From: Escherichia coli
GTDB lineage: Bacteria; Pseudomonadota; Gammaproteobacteria; Enterobacterales; Enterobacteriaceae
Assembly (NCBI RefSeq): GCF_003019035.1
Contig: NZ_CP027447.1
DNA: 64,000 nucleotides
Strand: one strand, 5' to 3'
Shown one piece after another: positions 7,909 to 15,051 of this stretch (position 1 is its first letter; each line of letters starts with the position of its first letter). The position numbers and the translations under genes are program-made. A model generated the notes under the pieces. That model had not been told where the DNA came from, searched no databases, and worked only from the letters and a program-made list of their open reading frames with translations.

Positions 7909-9648
7909 TTATAAATCGAGAATTTCTTCAAATTCTGTGACTTTATTAATGTCAGGTCCCATAGCGATATTAGTCACGCGTTCAGTAATAATTTCCACAA
8001 CAACAGGTACGTGAAATTCGTCACGCAAACGCTGGGCTTCTTGCAGTGCAGGCGCAATATCCTGTGATGCGAATACGCGAATCGCTTTACATCCTAATCC
8101 TTCAACCACAGCTTTATGATCAACGCCATAACCATTAATTTCTGGAGCATTAATATTTTCAAATGACAGTTGAACGCAATAATCAATATCAAATGCACGT
8201 TGTGATTGACGAATCAAACCAAGATAAGCGTTGTTAAGTAAAATATGGATATACGGAAGATTAAATTGTGCGCCGACGGCTAATTCTTCAATCAAGAATT
8301 GAAAATCGTAATCACCGGATATTGCCACAACGGGAACAGATGGATCAGCTTTTACCGCGCCCAGTGCTGCGGGCATTGTCCAGCCTAGCGGCCCAGCCTG
8401 ACAGGCATTAATCCAGTGGCGTGGGCGGTAAACATGTAAAAATTGGTTTGCGGCGATTTGCGCCAGACCAATTGTCGAAATATAGCGTGTCTCCGGTCCG
8501 AAAACCTTATTCATTTCGTGATACACGCGCTGCGGTTTAATTGGATTGCAGTCAAAGTCTGAACGACGAAGCATTGTGCGTTTACGCTCGGCACATTCGG
8601 CAATCCAGCGACTGCGGTCTTTCAGTTCTCCACGTGACTTCATATCACGGGCGACCTGAATAAATAGCGTTAAGGCGCTTTCAGCATCAGAAACAATGCC
8701 CAGATCCGGCGCAAATATCCGGCCAATTTGTGCAGGTTCGATATCAACATGAATGAATTTGCGGCCTTCGGTGTAGGTCTCAATGGCTCCGGTATGACGG
8801 TTTGCCCAACGGTTACCGATACCAAAAACAAAATCGGAGGCCAGATAACTGGCGTTACCATAGCGATGACCCGCCTGACATCCCATGCGACCAATCATTA
8901 GGGGATGATCATCTGATAATGCGCCCCAACCGCGTAAGGTTTGAATGACGGGAACGCCAGTTAACTCGACAAACTCACGCAACAATTCACTCGCTTCGGC
9001 GTTAATAATGCCACCGCCAGCGATGATGACGGGCTTTTCGGCGCCATTTAGCATTTCTAATGCGCGTACGGCCTGGGCCCGTGTTGCCTGAGGTTGCCAG
9101 GGGGTTAGTGGCTGATAGAGATCGATATCAAACTCAATTTCGGTCATCTGAACATCAAAAGGGAGATCTAAAAGAACCGGGCCAGGGCGGCCTGAACGCA
9201 TTTCCCAGAAGGCTTTCTGGAATATCCCCGGCAACTGACCCGCTTCGAGAATTGTGCGAGCCATTTTGGTTACTGGCGTGGCGATAGCCTCAATATCGAC
9301 GGCCTGGAAATCTTCTTTATGAAGTTTTCCTACGGGAGCTTGACCAGTAATGCAGAGAATAGGAATGGAATCCGCGGAGGCGGAATAAAGCCCCGTAATC
9401 ATATCAGTGCCCGCAGGGCCTGATGTGCCAATACACACGCCAATATTGCCATTCTGACTGCGGGTGTAACCTTCAGCCATATGCGAGGCGCCCTCAACAT
9501 GACGGGCCAGAATATGATCAATACCGCCTGATTTTTTCATCGCGGCATAGAGTGGGTTGATTGCTGCGCCGGGTACACCAAAAGCAACGCTAATGCCTTC
9601 TTTTTTCAGTATTTCTACTGCAGCTTCGATTGCACGCATCCTCGCCAT
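7909..9648 (-). CDS. Glyoxylate carboligase (tartronate-semialdehyde synthase), ThDP-dependent
   Basis: 579 aa; colinear with K-12 Gcl ([20 protein letters not shown]..., [43 protein letters not shown]) but clearly diverged, so a second gcl-type gene rather than the canonical locus. Confidence 0.88.
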
Positions 9649-10026
9649 ACATTATTTCTCCTGATATTTACGCTGAGTTGAATAGTCAGTCAATTTTGGA
9701 ATTTAACGACGAAATATCTTTGAGGAAATAAAAGGGCAGAACAAATTTCGCTGCACTGTTTCACAGTGAAACAACTCGTATGCCTGTGTTGTTTCAGTTT
9801 GAATAATGATAAATATCAAACGCAAAGATTTCAGATGTTGTTGGCAGTTTTAAAATTTATCTAATGTATTATTCGTTTTTTATTGCTTTAACGGTTATTC
9901 TTTCTAATGTATGTATGGTTACATTGTTGATAAGGTCTGTTTTTGTAATGATCCAGACTAGATATTATTGCGTTTGATCAAGCTTACTGGCATAGCATTC
10001 TGATACAAGTTCTGAAAATGACTTGA

Positions 10027-11976
10027 ATGGATATTATTATAATGAATAAAGAGTCGTATCATAATGATCTAAAAAATAAATGGAAAATGTTTGTTAAGCA
10101 TGGTTGGGTCGCGACAAATTCGACTAATCATGTGATGCTGAGGTCATGGCAAAAATGTCTCAAGCATTGTGACCCTCGCCACTGGAACACGCCTGTCAAA
10201 GCTTCCGGGCAAACATTGCAGACGATTTTTTCTCGTAACGAAGAGTTTATTAGAATTTCACAAAGAGTTGTTGAAGACCATTTCACTCTGGCTGGTGACG
10301 ACCGGTTGGCATTTTTGATCATTGACCCACACGGCTGGGTTCTATCGTTGAATGCAGCAGGCGATTATTCCAGTCAATTGCGAGAGTTAGGAATTGAATC
10401 TGGTATGTCATGGGCCGAAGATGGCATTGGAACCAATGTATATAGTCTTTGTCGGGAAACAAATTTATATACACAACTGGAAGGAGCAGAACATTTTAGT
10501 GAACAGCTACATTGTTATGCGATGAGCGCTGCTCCGGTCATTGATTATTATGGTAATATCCATGGATACATTGTATGTATAATTGAAACTACCGCCGAGC
10601 TTGTTAAATTAAAAACATCATATTCATGTGCAACAGAAATCGCTAATTATATCTATATTGAGAATGAACAAAAGTTAATAAACAAAGTACTTTGCCAGCA
10701 TAATGCTGTGATTGAATGCATGGATGACGGTTTTATTTGTTGGAATAGTCATTCTTTAATTACGATGGTTAATTCTCAAGCACAAACACTACTGAATATT
10801 GATAAAGAAAGTTTAATTGGTCAGAACATCCGAAAAGGATTCGTATTTCCGCCGATTTTGAATGAGGCAATTACACAACGGAACAAACTATCGCAAAAGC
10901 AAATTGTCCTCGAATGCCGTGGCGAATTTATTGAACTTATGGTTACCCTTCGCCCGTTAAGCGATGGTTCGTTTTTACTTTTTCTTCATCCATTAGACAA
11001 AATCAGGAAAATAGCCCAACAGCAAATAAGCACTAATGCAAATTTTACCTTTGACAGTTTACATGCGGCTTCAGGTGGTATGAAGCAGGTATTACTTATC
11101 GCTCGCCGGGCAATTAAATCCATCTCTCCGATTTTGATCAATGGCGAAGAAGGTGTGGGAAAATTGAGTTTGGCGATGGCAATACATAATGAGAGCGAGC
11201 AACGTGATGGGCCATTTATTTCTGTAGATTGTCAGATGCTATCACCAGAAAATATCTTACACGAACTTCTTGGCTCTGATGTTGGCCCTTCGCCATCGAA
11301 ATTTGAACTGGCTCATAATGGCACCTTATATCTGGATAAAGTCGAATATCTATCAGGGGAAGTTCAGAGTGTTTTATTGAAAGTATTGAAAACGGGGCTT
11401 GTTACTCGCTCAGACAGCCATCGTTTGATCCCCGTACGCTTTCGCCTGATTACATGTACCAGTAGTTCGTTACGTGAGTACGTGCAACAAGGGGCTTTTA
11501 GCCGACAGCTATATTATGAGATCTCCATGAATGAAATTGAAATTCCGCCATTGCGCAAACGTCGTGAAGATCTCAAGCAAATGATTGACGATATTATTGA
11601 TAAGTATCAGGAGCGCACTCGAAAAAAAATGACAATCACGCCTGACGCAAATTCAGTTCTGCTTGAGTACCGTTGGCCTGGAAACATCTCCGAGTTCAAA
11701 AATCGAATGGAGAAGGTATTTATTAACTGCAATCGGCTTGTCCTCGGATTAGAGAATATTCCTCTGGATATCCGACAAAATAACAGTAGTGGCGACGATG
11801 ATATCCCTCATCTTACTTCACTGGCAGAATTGGAGATGCAAGCTATTGAGCATACATGTCGTGTCTGCGAATGGAATCTAACTAAAGCAGCTGAAGTATT
11901 AAAAATTGGTCGTACAACATTATGGCGCAAGCTTAAAATCTATAATCTCTATCCAAATGTTGAGCATGCAGATTGA
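10027..11976 (+). CDS. DhaR-like transcriptional regulator (sensor domains + degenerate AAA+ sigma54-interaction domain + Fis-type HTH)
   Basis: 649 aa; central block INGEEGVGKLSLAMAIHNESEQRDGPFISVDC ... FSRQLYYE and C-terminal IGRTTLWRKLK closely parallel E. coli DhaR (CGEEGVGKALLSQAIHNESE ... IGRTTLWRKMKQ), with no GAFTGA motif. Divergent from the gcl-type operon. Confidence 0.75.
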   Translation: MDIIIMNKESYHNDLKNKWKMFVKHGWVATNSTNHVMLRSWQKCLKHCDPRHWNTPVKASGQTLQTIFSRNEEFIRISQRVVEDHFTLAGDDRLAFLIIDPHGWVLSLNAAGDYSSQLRELGIESGMSWAEDGIGTNVYSLCRETNLYTQLEGAEHFSEQLHCYAMSAAPVIDYYGNIHGYIVCIIETTAELVKLKTSYSCATEIANYIYIENEQKLINKVLCQHNAVIECMDDGFICWNSHSLITMVNSQAQTLLNIDKESLIGQNIRKGFVFPPILNEAITQRNKLSQKQIVLECRGEFIELMVTLRPLSDGSFLLFLHPLDKIRKIAQQQISTNANFTFDSLHAASGGMKQVLLIARRAIKSISPILINGEEGVGKLSLAMAIHNESEQRDGPFISVDCQMLSPENILHELLGSDVGPSPSKFELAHNGTLYLDKVEYLSGEVQSVLLKVLKTGLVTRSDSHRLIPVRFRLITCTSSSLREYVQQGAFSRQLYYEISMNEIEIPPLRKRREDLKQMIDDIIDKYQERTRKKMTITPDANSVLLEYRWPGNISEFKNRMEKVFINCNRLVLGLENIPLDIRQNNSSGDDDIPHLTSLAELEMQAIEHTCRVCEWNLTKAAEVLKIGRTTLWRKLKIYNLYPNVEHAD

Positions 11977-12262
11977 TGCTTTTCAAATTGAAAGAATTTT
12001 AATATCGCAGTGTTTCATTTTGATGCAGTGCTTTAATGGTATTGAAATATTGTGATGTGCTCCATAAATGCCAATGTGGTTATTAGCCAGGGAGACGGAA
12101 AATGTGTTTACACTCCTGAAATAATAAAAAATAGGCAAAGAGAGATGATCTCCTTGTATGTCTGTATTAGCATGATGTTGCTTGTTAATAATTAAAAATA
12201 TCAACGCGCTTATATAAGCGCGGGGGATTGTTTTACTCAATTATTGAATACGGAGATAAAGT

Positions 12263-13633
12263 ATGGAATTTTATCTGGAACCCGCTCGTAATATACCTGT
12301 ACTGGCAACCACGGAAGTGTTAGTTGTTGGTGGTGGTCCATCGGGTATTGCCGCAGCAATGAGTGCCGCTCGTGAAGGCGCAGCTACTATGCTGATTGAA
12401 CGTTTCGGTTGTTTTGGCGGAATGATGACAACGGCTGGCGTCGAGTCAATTGCCTGGTGGCGTCATGAAAATACGGTAGAGTCAGGTGGACTGGCACGCG
12501 AAATAGAAGAAACGGCAAAATCAATGGGGGCGTCCAGCCCTGAGCCGCAATCGAATAGTCAGGCTATTAACGCCGAGCGTTTCAAACTGGTTGCGGATGC
12601 AATGCTTGAACAGGCAGGTGTGCGCCGCGTACTACACATTACCGCCGTTGATGTTATTAAGCAGGGCAATAATTTACTCGGCGTAATAACAGAGAGTAAA
12701 TCTGGTCGTCAGGCTATTTTGGCGAATGTCATTATTGACTGTACTGGCGATGCCGATATTGCATGGTTTGCCGGAGCACCATTTATTAAGCGTGAACGTG
12801 AAGACCTGATGTGTATGACAACCGTTTTTAGTTGCGCAAATGTCAATAAAAACGCGTTCATGCAAAATATTAAGAGCACGGAACCTAAATATGGAGACTG
12901 GGGGGCGGATGAAGAAAATAAAAACTGGTCTTATGATGTTCATGAATCTTGTCGCGATATGTTTAGCCCTTATCTGGGTAAAGTCTTTGCGAAAGGAAAG
13001 TCGGCAGGAATTATTCCAAAAGATGTGACGTTAGGCGGTTCCTGGAGTACGGTCACCGAGTATGGTGATGCGAATTACTTGAACGTTGTCAGCATCCCTG
13101 CCGTCGATTGTACGGATGTTTTTGACCTGACGCGTGCAGAAATAGAAGGCCGCAAGCAAGCCATGCAGGCGATTGAAGCGTTGCGTCAATTCCAGCCAGG
13201 ATTTGAACAGGCACAATTAAAAAATTTCGGTATGACGGTGGGAACAAGAGAATCAAGACATATTATTGGGCGAGTCCAGCTTACGGAAAATGATATTTGT
13301 AATGAGGGACGTCATGCGGATTCAATAGGGGTATTCCCTGAGTTTATAGATGGAAATGGTCATCTTAAATTACCTCTTGAAGCGAACTATTTTCAAATCC
13401 CTTATGGCGTAATGATTCCGCAGCAAGTTGAAAACCTGTTGGTTTGCGGACGGGCAATCGATGCAGATAATTTCGCCTATGCGACAATCCGTAATATGGG
13501 GTGTTGTATTGTCACTGGAGAAGGTGCAGGGACTGCCGCTGCTATTGCCATTAAAAATAACACTACCGTTTCACAGGTAGATATTCAGACGGTACAGGAA
13601 CGCTTACAGCAAAATGGCGTAAAAGTCTTTTAA
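12263..13633 (+). CDS. FAD-dependent oxidoreductase (paralog of 1730-3094)
   Basis: 456 aa; VLVVGGGPSGIAAA Rossmann motif and CTGDADIA motif, colinear with the ORF at 1730-3094; first gene of an operon with the downstream transporter. Confidence 0.7.
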   Translation: MEFYLEPARNIPVLATTEVLVVGGGPSGIAAAMSAAREGAATMLIERFGCFGGMMTTAGVESIAWWRHENTVESGGLAREIEETAKSMGASSPEPQSNSQAINAERFKLVADAMLEQAGVRRVLHITAVDVIKQGNNLLGVITESKSGRQAILANVIIDCTGDADIAWFAGAPFIKREREDLMCMTTVFSCANVNKNAFMQNIKSTEPKYGDWGADEENKNWSYDVHESCRDMFSPYLGKVFAKGKSAGIIPKDVTLGGSWSTVTEYGDANYLNVVSIPAVDCTDVFDLTRAEIEGRKQAMQAIEALRQFQPGFEQAQLKNFGMTVGTRESRHIIGRVQLTENDICNEGRHADSIGVFPEFIDGNGHLKLPLEANYFQIPYGVMIPQQVENLLVCGRAIDADNFAYATIRNMGCCIVTGEGAGTAAAIAIKNNTTVSQVDIQTVQERLQQNGVKVF

Positions 13634-13647
13634 CAGGGAATAAAGTT

Positions 13648-15051
13648 ATGAGAGAAAAACCCAGTTTTTATGTCGCGCTTACACCGATCATTTTTATGAT
13701 GATCGTGTTGGTTGTTGGCATCGGTGTTATGGGCTGGCCTGCCAGCGTCTGTTTATTAATTTCAGCGGCGTTTTCCTGCATTATTGCAATGGCTAAGCTG
13801 AAATATACCTGGGATGAAATCCAGGGGTTTATTATCGATAAGATTTCGGCGGTGATGGCACCGGTACTTATCGTTATTTTCGTTGGCTTTATGGTCGCGA
13901 CATGGAGCTATGCAGGTACACTGCCGATGCTGGTTTATTACGGTATGTTACTGGTTGCGCCCGCATGGCTTTATGCCATAGCGTTTTTTCTGAACGCAAT
14001 ATTGTCCTATGTTTCCGGGGCATCATGGGGATCTGTCGCTTCTATTGGTGTTGCATTAATGGGCATCGGTTCCGGCTTACATGCCGATCTTCCAATTCTG
14101 GCGGCAGCCATTGTTACCGGGGCTTATTTTGGCGACAAACTTTCACCGTTAAGTGATACCACTAACCTGACTTCAGCGGTAACCAAAACTAAACTTTATG
14201 ATCTGATTAAATATCTACTCTGGACGACCATCCCATCAACGATTATTAGCCTGCTGTTTTTTACCTGGCTGGGAATGATTCATACTTCTACGGGCTCTAT
14301 TTCACCAGAAAGCATGCAGATGCTGGTACAGCTCAAAGAGTTATATAAGTTTGGTCTGTTACCGCTACTGCCTATGCTTATTGTTCTGTGCTTTACCTTT
14401 TTGCGTTTGCCTACAGTACCGGCATTATTAAGCAGTGCGTTCGTGGCCGTATTGGTTGGATGGCTGTATCAAGGTTTCCCGCTGGCCGAAGGTATTAAGG
14501 CCACAATGAGTGGTTTCCGTCTGACGATGATCACTGATTCAACGACGCTGTTACCTTCTGTGAAAGAACTGCTTGAACAAGGCGGCCTGAATAATCAGGG
14601 CGGATTCCTGTCATTTATTATCTGCGCCATGATGTTTGCTGGCATCCTGACGGGAACAGGAATGATGGATGTCACATTACAAAGTGCGGCAAACAAAATA
14701 AAAAGTGCTTTTGGCGCTATTCTGGCAAGCGGTGTTTTAGCGATCATCATTAACTTACTTACCGGTTCTGATGGTTTGAATAAGATTGTTATATCTGAAT
14801 TGATGATGAAGAAATTCGAAGATCTTAATTTATCACCGTTAGTCTTAGCCCGAACGCTGGAAGATTTTGGCACCATGAGCGCGCCAATTATTCCGTGGTC
14901 AGCTGCCGGATTGTATATGGCGACAACACTAGGCGTGCCGACGTTTAGTTACTTGCCGTACTGTGTATTCTGTTTCTGCTCGATGATATTTGCGTTGATC
15001 TATGCTTCTACAGGTTTCCGTTTACTGCGCTTCAACGAAGCAAAGGCCTGA
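13648..15051 (+). CDS. NhaC-family Na+/H+ antiporter-like transporter
   Basis: 467-aa polytopic membrane protein with the NhaC-type motif GAYFGDKLSPLSDTTNL; begins 14 nt after the upstream oxidoreductase. Confidence 0.65.
   Translation: MREKPSFYVALTPIIFMMIVLVVGIGVMGWPASVCLLISAAFSCIIAMAKLKYTWDEIQGFIIDKISAVMAPVLIVIFVGFMVATWSYAGTLPMLVYYGMLLVAPAWLYAIAFFLNAILSYVSGASWGSVASIGVALMGIGSGLHADLPILAAAIVTGAYFGDKLSPLSDTTNLTSAVTKTKLYDLIKYLLWTTIPSTIISLLFFTWLGMIHTSTGSISPESMQMLVQLKELYKFGLLPLLPMLIVLCFTFLRLPTVPALLSSAFVAVLVGWLYQGFPLAEGIKATMSGFRLTMITDSTTLLPSVKELLEQGGLNNQGGFLSFIICAMMFAGILTGTGMMDVTLQSAANKIKSAFGAILASGVLAIIINLLTGSDGLNKIVISELMMKKFEDLNLSPLVLARTLEDFGTMSAPIIPWSAAGLYMATTLGVPTFSYLPYCVFCFCSMIFALIYASTGFRLLRFNEAKA

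What the first reader, a model, noticed from the sequence alone, without database searches (positions are those of the whole stretch)
9751..12035. Shared GCA-N-TGTTTCA motif and palindromes in both AT-rich promoter regions of the island
The gcl/regulator divergent region contains the palindrome TGTTTCAC-A-GTGAAACA (about 9757-9773), preceded by GCACTGTTTCA. The promoter region of the second oxidoreductase operon contains GCAGTGTTTCA (about 12007-12017), GCAGTGCTTTA (about 12025-12035) and a perfect palindrome TTTCAA-A-TTGAAA (11981-11993). A recurring GCA(C/G)TGTTTCA element in both control regions is what one would expect of a common regulator site, plausibly for the DhaR-like protein. I found no convincing sigma54 -24/-12 element (TGGCAC-N5-TTGC) in either region, which fits a DhaR-type sigma70-dependent activator.
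Basis: seen in the sequence. Interest (0 to 1): 0.4.

Follow-up and report, generated by a model that had tools for sequence, protein, structure and literature searches.

The report
DhaR-type operator pairs in GimA island
The repeated TGTTTCA words flanking the regulator gene ibeR in the E. coli GimA virulence island are halves of paired 17-bp inverted repeats, the same operator design found at the dihydroxyacetone regulator DhaR's own promoter, so they are very probably the binding sites through which IbeR (and possibly DhaR) controls the island, including the invasion-associated gene ibeA.

Summary
The window is the ExPEC GimA island. The motif as defined, GCA-N-TGTTTCA, is not above chance, and its GCA prefix and the GCAGTGCTTTA copy are not conserved in orthologues.

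The real unit is a 17-bp inverted repeat, YGTTTCA-N3-TGRAACR. It occurs as tandem pairs with centres 32-33 bp apart:
- 9757-9773 + 9790-9806, in the gcl/ibeR divergent region.
- 11979-11995 + 12011-12027, starting 3 bp after the ibeR stop and 244 bp upstream of ibeA.
- A third pair outside the window, in the island's dhaK/gldA divergent region.

The same architecture sits in the K-12 dhaK-dhaR control region. It also sits next to IbeR/DhaR homologues in Pluralibacter, Citrobacter, Serratia and Vibrio: 13 pairs against 0.29 expected.

IbeR scores as a DhaR equivalog, lacks GAFTGA, and shares the invariant helix IGRTTLWRK with DhaR. Neither region has a sigma54 -24/-12 element.

Verdict: these are DhaR-family operators for a sigma70-dependent regulator. 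Binding is inferred, not shown. This is a new member of a known kind, of moderate interest.

The parts
9757..9773 (.). Operator site 1 (strong, gcl-proximal): TGTTTCAcagTGAAACA, matching 14 of 14 specified positions of the inverted repeat.
   Evidence: best single PWM score in the window, 19.8 bits. It aligns with TGTTTCAtagTGAAACA in Pluralibacter and in K-12 dhaK-dhaR.
9790..9806 (.). Operator site 2 (weaker, gcl-distal): TGTTTCAgttTGAATAA. Its centre lies 33 bp from the centre of site 1.
   Evidence: The left half TGTTTCA is invariant in E. coli, Pluralibacter and Citrobacter.
11979..11995 (.). Operator site a: CTTTTCAaatTGAAAGA.
   Evidence: 12.4 bits. It aligns with TGTTTCAttaTGAAATA in Pluralibacter.
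12011..12027 (.). Operator site b: TGTTTCAtttTGATGCA. Its centre lies 32 bp from site a and 244 bp upstream of the ibeA ATG.
   Evidence: 12.1 bits. It aligns with CGTTTCTtttTGGAAAA in Pluralibacter, where the distance to the ibeA ATG is 245 bp.
10042..11976 (+). ibeR, annotated 'dhaR' by RefSeq/PGAP. It is a DhaR-family regulator with PAS, an AAA+ (Sigma54_activat) domain without GAFTGA, and a Fis-type HTH.
   Evidence: NF008485 at 985.8 bits, cutoff 551.
7909..9648 (-). gcl (gcxC), first gene of the gcl-hyi-glxR-glxK operon. It is the probable target of operator pair 1, whose site centres lie 117 and 150 bp upstream of its ATG.
   Evidence: The same pair lies upstream of gcl in Pluralibacter, Citrobacter and two Serratia.
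12263..15051 (+). ibeA (FAD-dependent oxidoreductase) and ibeT (NhaC-type antiporter). They are the probable targets of operator pair 2.
   Evidence: An ibeA-like gene sits behind a tandem pair in Pluralibacter and, after a BCCT transporter gene, in Serratia.
9716..9744 (-). Putative sigma70 promoter of gcl (inferred only): -35 TTGTTC at 9744..9739, a 17-nt spacer, and -10 AAAGAT at 9721..9716. This would put the operator centres near -56 and -89.
   Evidence: A TTG conserved 12-14 nt after the proximal operator in five gcl loci. It was not found by the consensus scan. No transcription start data are available.
12042..12070 (+). Possible ibeA promoter (weak inference): TTGAAA at 12042-12047, 14 nt after site b, with a poor -10 TAAATG at 12065-12070.
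   Evidence: Read from the sequence. It is not conserved in Pluralibacter and was not reported by the scan.

Best explanation
The TGTTTCA words are half-sites of a DhaR-family operator.

**Anatomy (shown).** The operator is a 17-bp inverted repeat, YGTTTCA-N3-TGRAACR. It is always present as two copies with centres 31-34 bp apart, about three helical turns, so both lie on the same face of the DNA. Usually one copy is near-perfect and one is weaker. GimA carries three such pairs:
- Upstream of gcl, in the gcl/ibeR divergent region.
- Upstream of ibeA-ibeT.
- Between the island's dhaK-dhaL-ptsP and gldA operons, outside the window.

**Mechanism (inferred).**
- IbeR is a DhaR paralogue with the same HTH recognition helix (IGRTTLWRK) and no GAFTGA. 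It binds each pair, probably as two dimers.
- From there it controls adjacent sigma70 promoters. The proximal site centre lies roughly 56-58 bp upstream of the predicted start, which is class-I-like geometry.
- The four operons of the island would then form one IbeR regulon.
- By analogy with DhaR, IbeR activity is probably set by the island's own DhaK/DhaL paralogues.
- Because the core-genome DhaR has the same recognition helix and operator, it may also occupy these sites.
For: 1. The K-12 dhaK-dhaR region carries TGTTTCAtagTGAAACA plus TGTTCCAtatTGAAACT with centres 31 bp apart. This is almost identical to window 9757-9806.
2. The GimA dhaK/gldA region carries AGATTCAtaaTGAAACA plus TGTTCCAaaaTGAAATG with centres 32 bp apart.
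3. In 137 kb around seven IbeR/DhaR homologues from Pluralibacter, Citrobacter, Serratia and Vibrio there are 13 tandem pairs against 0.285 expected (largest null value 4). Single sites are at chance, 87 against 78.6. Twelve of the 13 pairs are intergenic next to gcl, dhaK, gldA, a BCCT transporter, an ibeA-like gene or the regulator.
4. A PWM trained only on the non-E. coli sites ranks 9757 (29.7 bits) and 11979 (24.5 bits) first and second in the window. The next independent position scores 1.6, and the null maximum is 21.7.
5. In the phylogenetic footprints the half-sites are the conserved blocks, while the flanks and the GCA prefix vary.
6. IbeR is a DhaR equivalog at 985.8 bits, against 1020.6 for K-12 DhaR. 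GAFTGA is absent and IGRTTLWRK is invariant in all six aligned proteins.
7. No sigma54 promoter element is present. DhaR is documented to act at a sigma70 promoter (PMC10084136).
8. ibeA mRNA changes in a delta-ibeR mutant (PMC4359115).
Against: - No binding experiment for IbeR, or a DhaR footprint, could be read. Bächler 2005, Cortes 2008, Fléchard 2012 and Chi 2009 are not held in the library.
- The PWM test is partly circular, because the training sites were picked by similarity to the E. coli-derived pattern. The pair-count test and the intergenic placement are the independent evidence.
- The sites upstream of ibeA are degenerate (11 and 12 of 14 positions) and lie 244-276 bp from the ATG. 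That requires a long leader or a distant promoter.
- ibeA was up-regulated, not down-regulated, in delta-ibeR APEC (PMC4359115). At ibeA the regulator may therefore repress under those conditions. DhaR is annotated as a dual regulator.
- The promoters are predicted only. The consensus scans found nothing above shuffles.
- Sequence analysis cannot separate IbeR from DhaR as the occupant of these sites.
Confidence: 0.8

Rival explanations
1. The sites are bound mainly by the core-genome DhaR rather than by IbeR. The island would have been wired into the existing dihydroxyacetone regulon, and IbeR would act elsewhere or redundantly.
For: The operator of K-12 dhaK-dhaR is almost the same sequence, and the recognition helix is identical in DhaR and IbeR. 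The dhaK-dhaR region is present in 5383 of 5426 E. coli genomes, so GimA strains have both proteins.
Against: The tandem pairs travel with the IbeR-type regulator gene in Pluralibacter, Citrobacter and Serratia, directly flanking it. A cis-linked regulator is the simpler reading. A delta-ibeR mutant changes ibeA mRNA even though dhaR is presumably intact (PMC4359115).
Confidence: 0.12
2. The resemblance is chance similarity in AT-rich, H-NS-type island intergenic DNA. The palindromes have no specific protein partner, or act only as hairpins.
For: TGTTTCA is at its expected frequency. Each palindrome alone is weak, with p about 0.02-0.14.
Against: Tandem-pair scores exceed all 100 null 64-kb sequences. 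There are 13 pairs against 0.285 expected in orthologous loci, 12 of them intergenic. Spacing (31-34 bp) and position are conserved across genera as far as Vibrio. No U-tract follows the hairpins.
Confidence: 0.03
3. The sites belong to another global regulator with a similar half-site, such as Cra/FruR (TGAAAC|GTTTCA) or CRP (TGTGA-N6-TCACA).
For: The half-site TGAAAC equals the Cra left half-site (from knowledge of the Cra consensus). The island encodes carbon-source metabolism.
Against: The orientation and spacing are wrong. Here the halves are GTTTCA-N3-TGAAAC, with a 3-bp gap and outward-facing relative to Cra's abutting TGAAAC-GTTTCA. The CRP halves are in the reverse order (sequence). 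Neither regulator explains the 32-bp tandem architecture or the strict linkage to DhaR-family genes.
Confidence: 0.03

Closest known systems
E. coli K-12 DhaR and the dhaK-dhaR divergent control region (Bächler et al. 2005; summarised in PMC10084136)
   Same: - The protein family is the same: NF008485 equivalog, PAS/AAA+/HTH_8 domains, no GAFTGA.
- The recognition helix is identical.
- The strong operator is almost identical (TGTTTCA-N3-TGAAACA), followed by a weaker copy about 3 helical turns away.
- The placement is divergent, about 100-130 bp upstream of the target gene's ATG.
- The promoter type is sigma70.
- dhaK/dhaL genes are present in the same gene cluster.
   Different: - IbeR is only 31% identical to DhaR.
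- The targets extend beyond dhaKL to gcl-hyi-glxR-glxK, gldA with an MFS transporter and an FAD oxidoreductase, and ibeA-ibeT.
- There are three operator pairs per island rather than one.
- The operators lie 244-277 bp from the ibeR start, against 72-103 bp for dhaR, so autoregulation by promoter occlusion is less obvious.
- I could not read a published DhaR footprint. Here the K-12 operator is itself inferred from conservation.
TyrR and its strong/weak TyrR boxes (from general knowledge of the TyrR regulon)
   Same: TyrR is also an AAA+ protein of the enhancer-binding-protein family that has lost sigma54 coupling and acts at sigma70 promoters. It uses palindromic boxes that occur as a strong box next to a weak box, so higher-order assembly fills the weak one. 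It acts as a dual activator and repressor.
   Different: The box sequence differs (TGTAAA-N6-TTTACA), as do the spacing and the ligand-binding domains. There is no evidence here for ligand-driven hexamerisation. This is a resemblance in how the system works, not family membership.
Classical sigma54 enhancer-binding proteins (NtrC, NifA) with tandem upstream activator sequences
   Same: The AAA+ core and the Fis-type HTH are shared, and the palindromic upstream sites are paired.
   Different: There is no GAFTGA and no -24/-12 promoter. The sites lie next to a -35-like element rather than 100-150 bp upstream of a sigma54 promoter.

Membership tests
DhaR family of regulators (protein IbeR) | Scores above the curated cutoff of the NCBIfam DhaR equivalog model NF008485. 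| tested here: met
   985.8 bits against a cutoff of 551. K-12 DhaR itself scores 1020.6.
DhaR family of regulators (protein IbeR) | Architecture of an N-terminal sensor (GAF/PAS), an AAA+ Sigma54_activat core and a C-terminal Fis-type HTH. | tested here: met
   PAS at 222-317, Sigma54_activat at 343-499, AAA_lid_14 and HTH_8 at 593-633. Pfam did not call a GAF domain, but the N-terminus aligns with DhaR.
DhaR family of regulators (protein IbeR) | Loss of the GAFTGA sigma54-contact motif. | tested here: met
   IbeR reads ELLGSDVGP--SPSKFELAHNGTLYLD and DhaR reads EFIGGDRTDNENGRLSRLELAHGGTLFLE. PMC10084136 states that DhaR lacks the sigma54-binding motif.
DhaR family of regulators (protein IbeR) | Activity controlled by binding of DhaK (co-repressor) and DhaL-ADP (co-activator). 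| not testable with these tools
   The island encodes dhaK, dhaL and a ptsP/dhaM-like gene. Interaction with IbeR is inferred only.
DhaR-type tandem operator | A 17-bp inverted repeat YGTTTCA-N3-TGRAACR. | tested here: met
   the four window sites match 14, 12, 11 and 12 of 14 positions. C6 and G12 are present in all four.
DhaR-type tandem operator | Two copies with centres 31-34 bp apart. | tested here: met
   33 bp (9765/9798) and 32 bp (11987/12019). K-12 has 31 bp and the other genera 31-34 bp. Pair count is 13 against 0.285 expected.
DhaR-type tandem operator | Conserved in orthologous promoters and linked to a DhaR-family gene. | tested here: met
DhaR-type tandem operator | Physically bound by the regulator. 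| not testable with these tools
   No EMSA, footprint or ChIP data were accessible. The primary papers are not held in the library.
Sigma54-dependent enhancer/promoter | A -24/-12 element TGGCAC-N5-TTGC downstream of the sites. | tested here: not met
   no match with up to 2 mismatches in 9649-10041 or 11977-12262.
   9 shared 11-mer pairs (up to 1 mismatch) against a null mean of 5.96, and 22% of nulls reach the observed value; 4 matches against 2.45 expected.
   The prefixes are AAGC and TTCT at gcl and GATGG at ibeA. GCAGTGCTTTA aligns with AAAGAGCGCCT.
Cra/FruR or CRP operator | Half-site order and spacing: Cra TGAAAC|GTTTCA abutting, CRP TGTGA-N6-TCACA. | tested here: not met
   Sequence. 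The halves are in the opposite order with a 3-bp gap. The consensus sequences are taken from general knowledge.

The most novel reading that the evidence does not exclude
GimA would be a single IbeR regulon. All its operons (dhaKL-ptsP, gldA-MFS-oxidoreductase, gcl-hyi-glxR-glxK and ibeA-ibeT) carry the same tandem operator that the core-genome DhaR uses. The invasion and oxidative-stress gene ibeA would then be under 'trigger-enzyme' control, with DhaK/DhaL-type kinase subunits reporting a triose or glyoxylate-type metabolite. It would also be cross-wired to the housekeeping dihydroxyacetone sensor, with DhaR and IbeR competing or cooperating at each other's sites. The conserved linkage with a BCCT transporter and an IbeA-like flavoprotein from Vibrio to E. 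coli would further mean that IbeA is a catabolic enzyme of an unidentified DhaR-regulated pathway rather than primarily an invasin.
Probability: 0.35. Interest if true: 0.55.

Novelty: new member of a known kind. Interest (0 to 1): 0.4.

Why it matters
ibeA is a widely used virulence marker of neonatal-meningitis and avian pathogenic E. coli. [quoted passage not shown]

A defined, testable operator ties ibeA, the glyoxylate/glycerate operon and the island's DHA-kinase operon to one DhaR-type regulator. That gives a concrete regulatory model for the island:
- It explains why ibeA expression responds to ibeR deletion (PMC4359115).
- It points to metabolite sensing through DhaK/DhaL paralogues.
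- It predicts cross-talk with the core DhaR.

It also yields a family-wide operator model (YGTTTCA-N3-TGRAACR, two copies about 32 bp apart) that can be used to annotate DhaR regulons from Vibrio to Enterobacteriaceae.

Tried and rejected
- **Literature.** I tried to read the primary papers that might have mapped promoters or sites: Cortes 2008 (PMC2519445), Fléchard 2012 (PMC3415484), Chi 2009 (PMC2655632) and Bächler 2005 (PMC545809 and its DOI). None is held. A full-text search for the operator sequences found nothing relevant. I therefore cannot say whether a DhaR footprint has been published. My recollection that Fléchard's work touched on IbeR and H-NS control of ibeA is unverified and is not used.
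- **Sigma70 scans.** The consensus scans gave no more hits than shuffles, and none that explains the geometry. The gcl promoter proposal rests only on a conserved TTG.
- **Sigma54.** I looked at TTAGCATGATGTTGCTT (about 12167-12183) as a possible -24/-12 element. It has AG instead of GG, its spacing is one base short, and it is not conserved in Pluralibacter, so I rejected it.
- **Duplication.** I tested whether the ibeR-upstream and ibeA-upstream regions are duplicates, because both have operator centres 244 and 276-277 bp from the ATG. There is no homology beyond the operators.
- **Within-species variation.** This has little power because the alleles are at least 98.8% identical. Operator pair 1 is invariant. 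Pair 2 changes only at tolerated positions.
- **Other regulators and hairpins.** Cra, CRP, FNR, IHF and terminator-hairpin readings of the palindromes were considered and rejected on half-site order and spacing, or on the lack of a U-tract.
Full report
**What the window is.** Region 9600-12300 matches 246 of 5426 complete E. coli genomes at 98.8% identity or better in the rows listed. It is annotated gcl / dhaR / ibeA. The annotated neighbourhood in strain ExPEC XM runs, from one end: dhaK-dhaL-ptsP, divergent from gldA-MFS-FAD oxidoreductase; a BCCT transporter; glycerate kinase-glxR-hyi-gcl, divergent from 'dhaR'; then ibeA, nhaC and hypT. This is the GimA island with its four operons, ptnIPKC, cglDTEC, gcxKRCI and ibeRAT (PMC2878320, PMC4359115). 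Its annotated start is 10042, and the open frame reaches back to 10027.

**Check of the observation.**
- TGTTTCA occurs 13 times against 12.1 expected.
- GCASTGTTTCA with up to one mismatch occurs 4 times against 2.45 expected.
- Two AT-rich regions of this size share an 11-mer with up to one mismatch in 97% of nulls. The observed count was 9 pairs against a null mean of 5.96.
- The palindromes taken singly are weak, with p about 0.02-0.14.
- The absence of a sigma54 -24/-12 element is confirmed.

**What is really there.** The K-12 dhaK-dhaR intergenic region reads ...TGTTTCAtagTGAAACA...(14 nt)...TGTTCCAtatTGAAACT.... The window has the same architecture twice:
- TGTTTCAcagTGAAACA (9757-9773) plus TGTTTCAgttTGAATAA (9790-9806), centres 33 bp apart.
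- CTTTTCAaatTGAAAGA (11979-11995) plus TGTTTCAtttTGATGCA (12011-12027), centres 32 bp apart.

A third pair lies in the island's dhaK/gldA divergent region, outside the window: L001 3465 and 3497, centres 32 bp apart.

The 'TGTTTCA core' is a half-site. The TTTCAA-A-TTGAAA palindrome is the centre of site a. GCAGTGCTTTA overlaps the right half of site b. The 'GCA-N' prefixes lie outside the repeats.

**Related loci.** One scan of species-representative genomes with IbeR returned seven loci: Pluralibacter at 76% identity, Citrobacter sp. NCU1 at 62%, two Serratia at 45-46% and three Vibrio at 40-42%.
- Every locus carries tandem pairs of the same repeat with the two copies 31-34 bp apart.
- In total there are 13 pairs in 137 kb against 0.285 expected, with a largest null value of 4.
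- Single sites are at their chance level, 87 against 78.6, so the pair is the signal.
- Twelve of the 13 pairs are intergenic, immediately upstream of gcl, dhaK, gldA, a BCCT transporter followed by an IbeA-like flavoprotein, ibeA itself, or the regulator gene. The one intragenic pair is the weakest, with both sites at 10 of 14 positions.
- A PWM trained only on the non-E. coli sites places the two window pairs first and second at 29.7 and 24.5 bits. The next independent position scores 1.6. Null 64-kb sequences reach at most 21.7. The island dhaK/gldA pair scores 34.6 and K-12 dhaK-dhaR scores 39.9.
- This PWM test is partly circular, because the training sites were recognised by similarity to the E. 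coli pattern. The pair-count and placement tests are the independent evidence.

**Footprints.**
- In the E. coli/Pluralibacter/Citrobacter alignment of the gcl-ibeR region, the invariant blocks are GTTTCA...G.AAC and TGTTTCA.T.TGAA.
- Upstream of ibeA, both sites are retained in Pluralibacter (TGTTTCAttaTGAAATA and CGTTTCTtttTGGAAAA). Nearly the same distance to the ibeA ATG is kept, 245 against 244 bp. GCAG and GCAGTGCTTTA are not conserved.
- Within E. coli the alleles are too similar to be informative. Pair 1 is invariant. In strain A32, pair 2 changes only at positions the family tolerates.

**The protein.**
- IbeR matches the NCBIfam DhaR equivalog at 985.8 bits, against a cutoff of 551 and 1020.6 for K-12 DhaR.
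- It has PAS, Sigma54_activat, AAA-lid and HTH_8 domains.
- It is 31% identical to K-12 DhaR. All six aligned homologues lack GAFTGA and share the invariant HTH segment IGRTTLWRK. A common recognition helix explains a common operator.
- DhaR is documented to act at a sigma70 promoter, to lack the sigma54-binding motif, and to be switched by DhaK and DhaL (PMC10084136, citing Bächler 2005 and Shi 2014).

**How it most likely works.**
- *Shown:* the anatomy, the conservation and the linkage to DhaR-family genes.
- *Inferred:* IbeR binds each pair, plausibly as two dimers on one face of the helix, and regulates adjacent sigma70 promoters.
- *gcl promoter:* for gcl, a TTG conserved 12-14 nt beyond the proximal operator in five genera suggests a -35 (TTGTTC, 9744..9739) with a weak -10 (AAAGAT, 9721..9716). 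This puts the operator centres near -56 and -89. By eye, similar -35-like hexamers follow the proximal site at the island dhaK (TTGTTT, 14 nt; sequence) and at ibeA (TTGAAA, 12042-12047, 14 nt). The ibeA one is not conserved in Pluralibacter. These promoters are predictions; the consensus scans did not support them.
- *Direction of control is uncertain:* ibeA mRNA rose in a delta-ibeR APEC mutant (PMC4359115). That would fit repression in the uninduced state, and DhaR is annotated as a dual regulator.
- *Signal input:* by analogy, the input would come through the island's DhaK/DhaL paralogues. This was not tested.
- *Cross-occupancy:* the core dhaK-dhaR region is present in 5383 of 5426 genomes, so GimA strains have both regulators. 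Each may occupy the other's operators, but this cannot be resolved by sequence analysis.

**Comparison and novelty.** The closest system is K-12 DhaR/dhaKLM. The family, operator and promoter type are the same. The differences are the wider target set, the three operator pairs per island, and the greater distance of the operators from the regulator's own start codon. In operation it also resembles the strong and weak boxes of TyrR; this is a resemblance only, drawn from general knowledge. It is not a sigma54 enhancer system.

I found no accessible paper that reports an IbeR binding site, and a 2026 paper calls the GimA regulon elusive (PMC13128420). I could not read the primary DhaR and ibeRAT transcription papers, so prior description of the DhaR operator cannot be excluded. 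I therefore rate this as a new member of a known kind, of moderate interest.

Noticed in passing
window 12205-12222: A perfect GC-rich palindrome, CGCGCTTATATAAGCGCG, lies 41 bp upstream of the ibeA ATG. It was flagged as terminator-like on the minus strand. Pluralibacter has a different small palindrome (CGCAttaattTGCG) at the aligned place. It could be a leader hairpin or another regulator's site.
   Followed up: partly
window 12161-12174: The block TCTGTATTAGCATG is identical in E. coli and Pluralibacter, within otherwise diverged DNA upstream of ibeA. It superficially resembles a -24/-12 element but has the wrong spacing. Its function is unknown.
   Followed up: partly
window 9963-9982 and 10001-10009: The blocks ATTATTGCGTTTGATCAA (containing the palindrome TTGATCAA) and TGATACAAG upstream of ibeR are conserved across E. 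coli, Pluralibacter and partly Citrobacter. They may be the ibeR promoter or a second regulator's site.
   Followed up: no
window 9757-10042 versus 11979-12263: The operator centres lie 277 and 244 bp from the ibeR ATG and 276 and 244 bp from the ibeA ATG. The ibeA distance is kept in Pluralibacter at 245 bp. There is no sequence homology between the two leaders beyond the operators. This is unexplained.
   Followed up: partly
L001 3465-3513 (island dhaK/gldA divergent region, about 6.3 kb upstream of window position 1): A third tandem operator pair of GimA, with a tandem PWM score of 34.6. This implies that the island's DHA-kinase and gldA operons belong to the same regulon.
   Followed up: yes
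L004 12090-12137, L006 9788-9837 and L007 8857-8906: In Serratia and Vibrio the tandem operators sit next to BCCT-family (betaine/choline/carnitine-type) transporter genes. In Serratia an IbeA-like FAD oxidoreductase follows. This hints that IbeA belongs to a conserved catabolic pathway for an unidentified substrate.
   Followed up: partly
window 10027-10041: The ibeR open frame starts at ATG 10027 (MDIIIMNKESY...), whereas RefSeq annotates the start at 10042. The homologues align from the 10042 start.
   Followed up: partly
window 19395-24635 (minus strand): A 1746-aa ORF encodes an inverse autotransporter (intimin/invasin-like) with an IAT_beta domain and many Big_1 and Invasin_D3 repeats. 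At the corresponding distance downstream, strain XM carries yjiJ, yjiK, ytiA, yjiL and yjiM, but I did not compare the two sequences there. It is unrelated to the finding.
   Followed up: no
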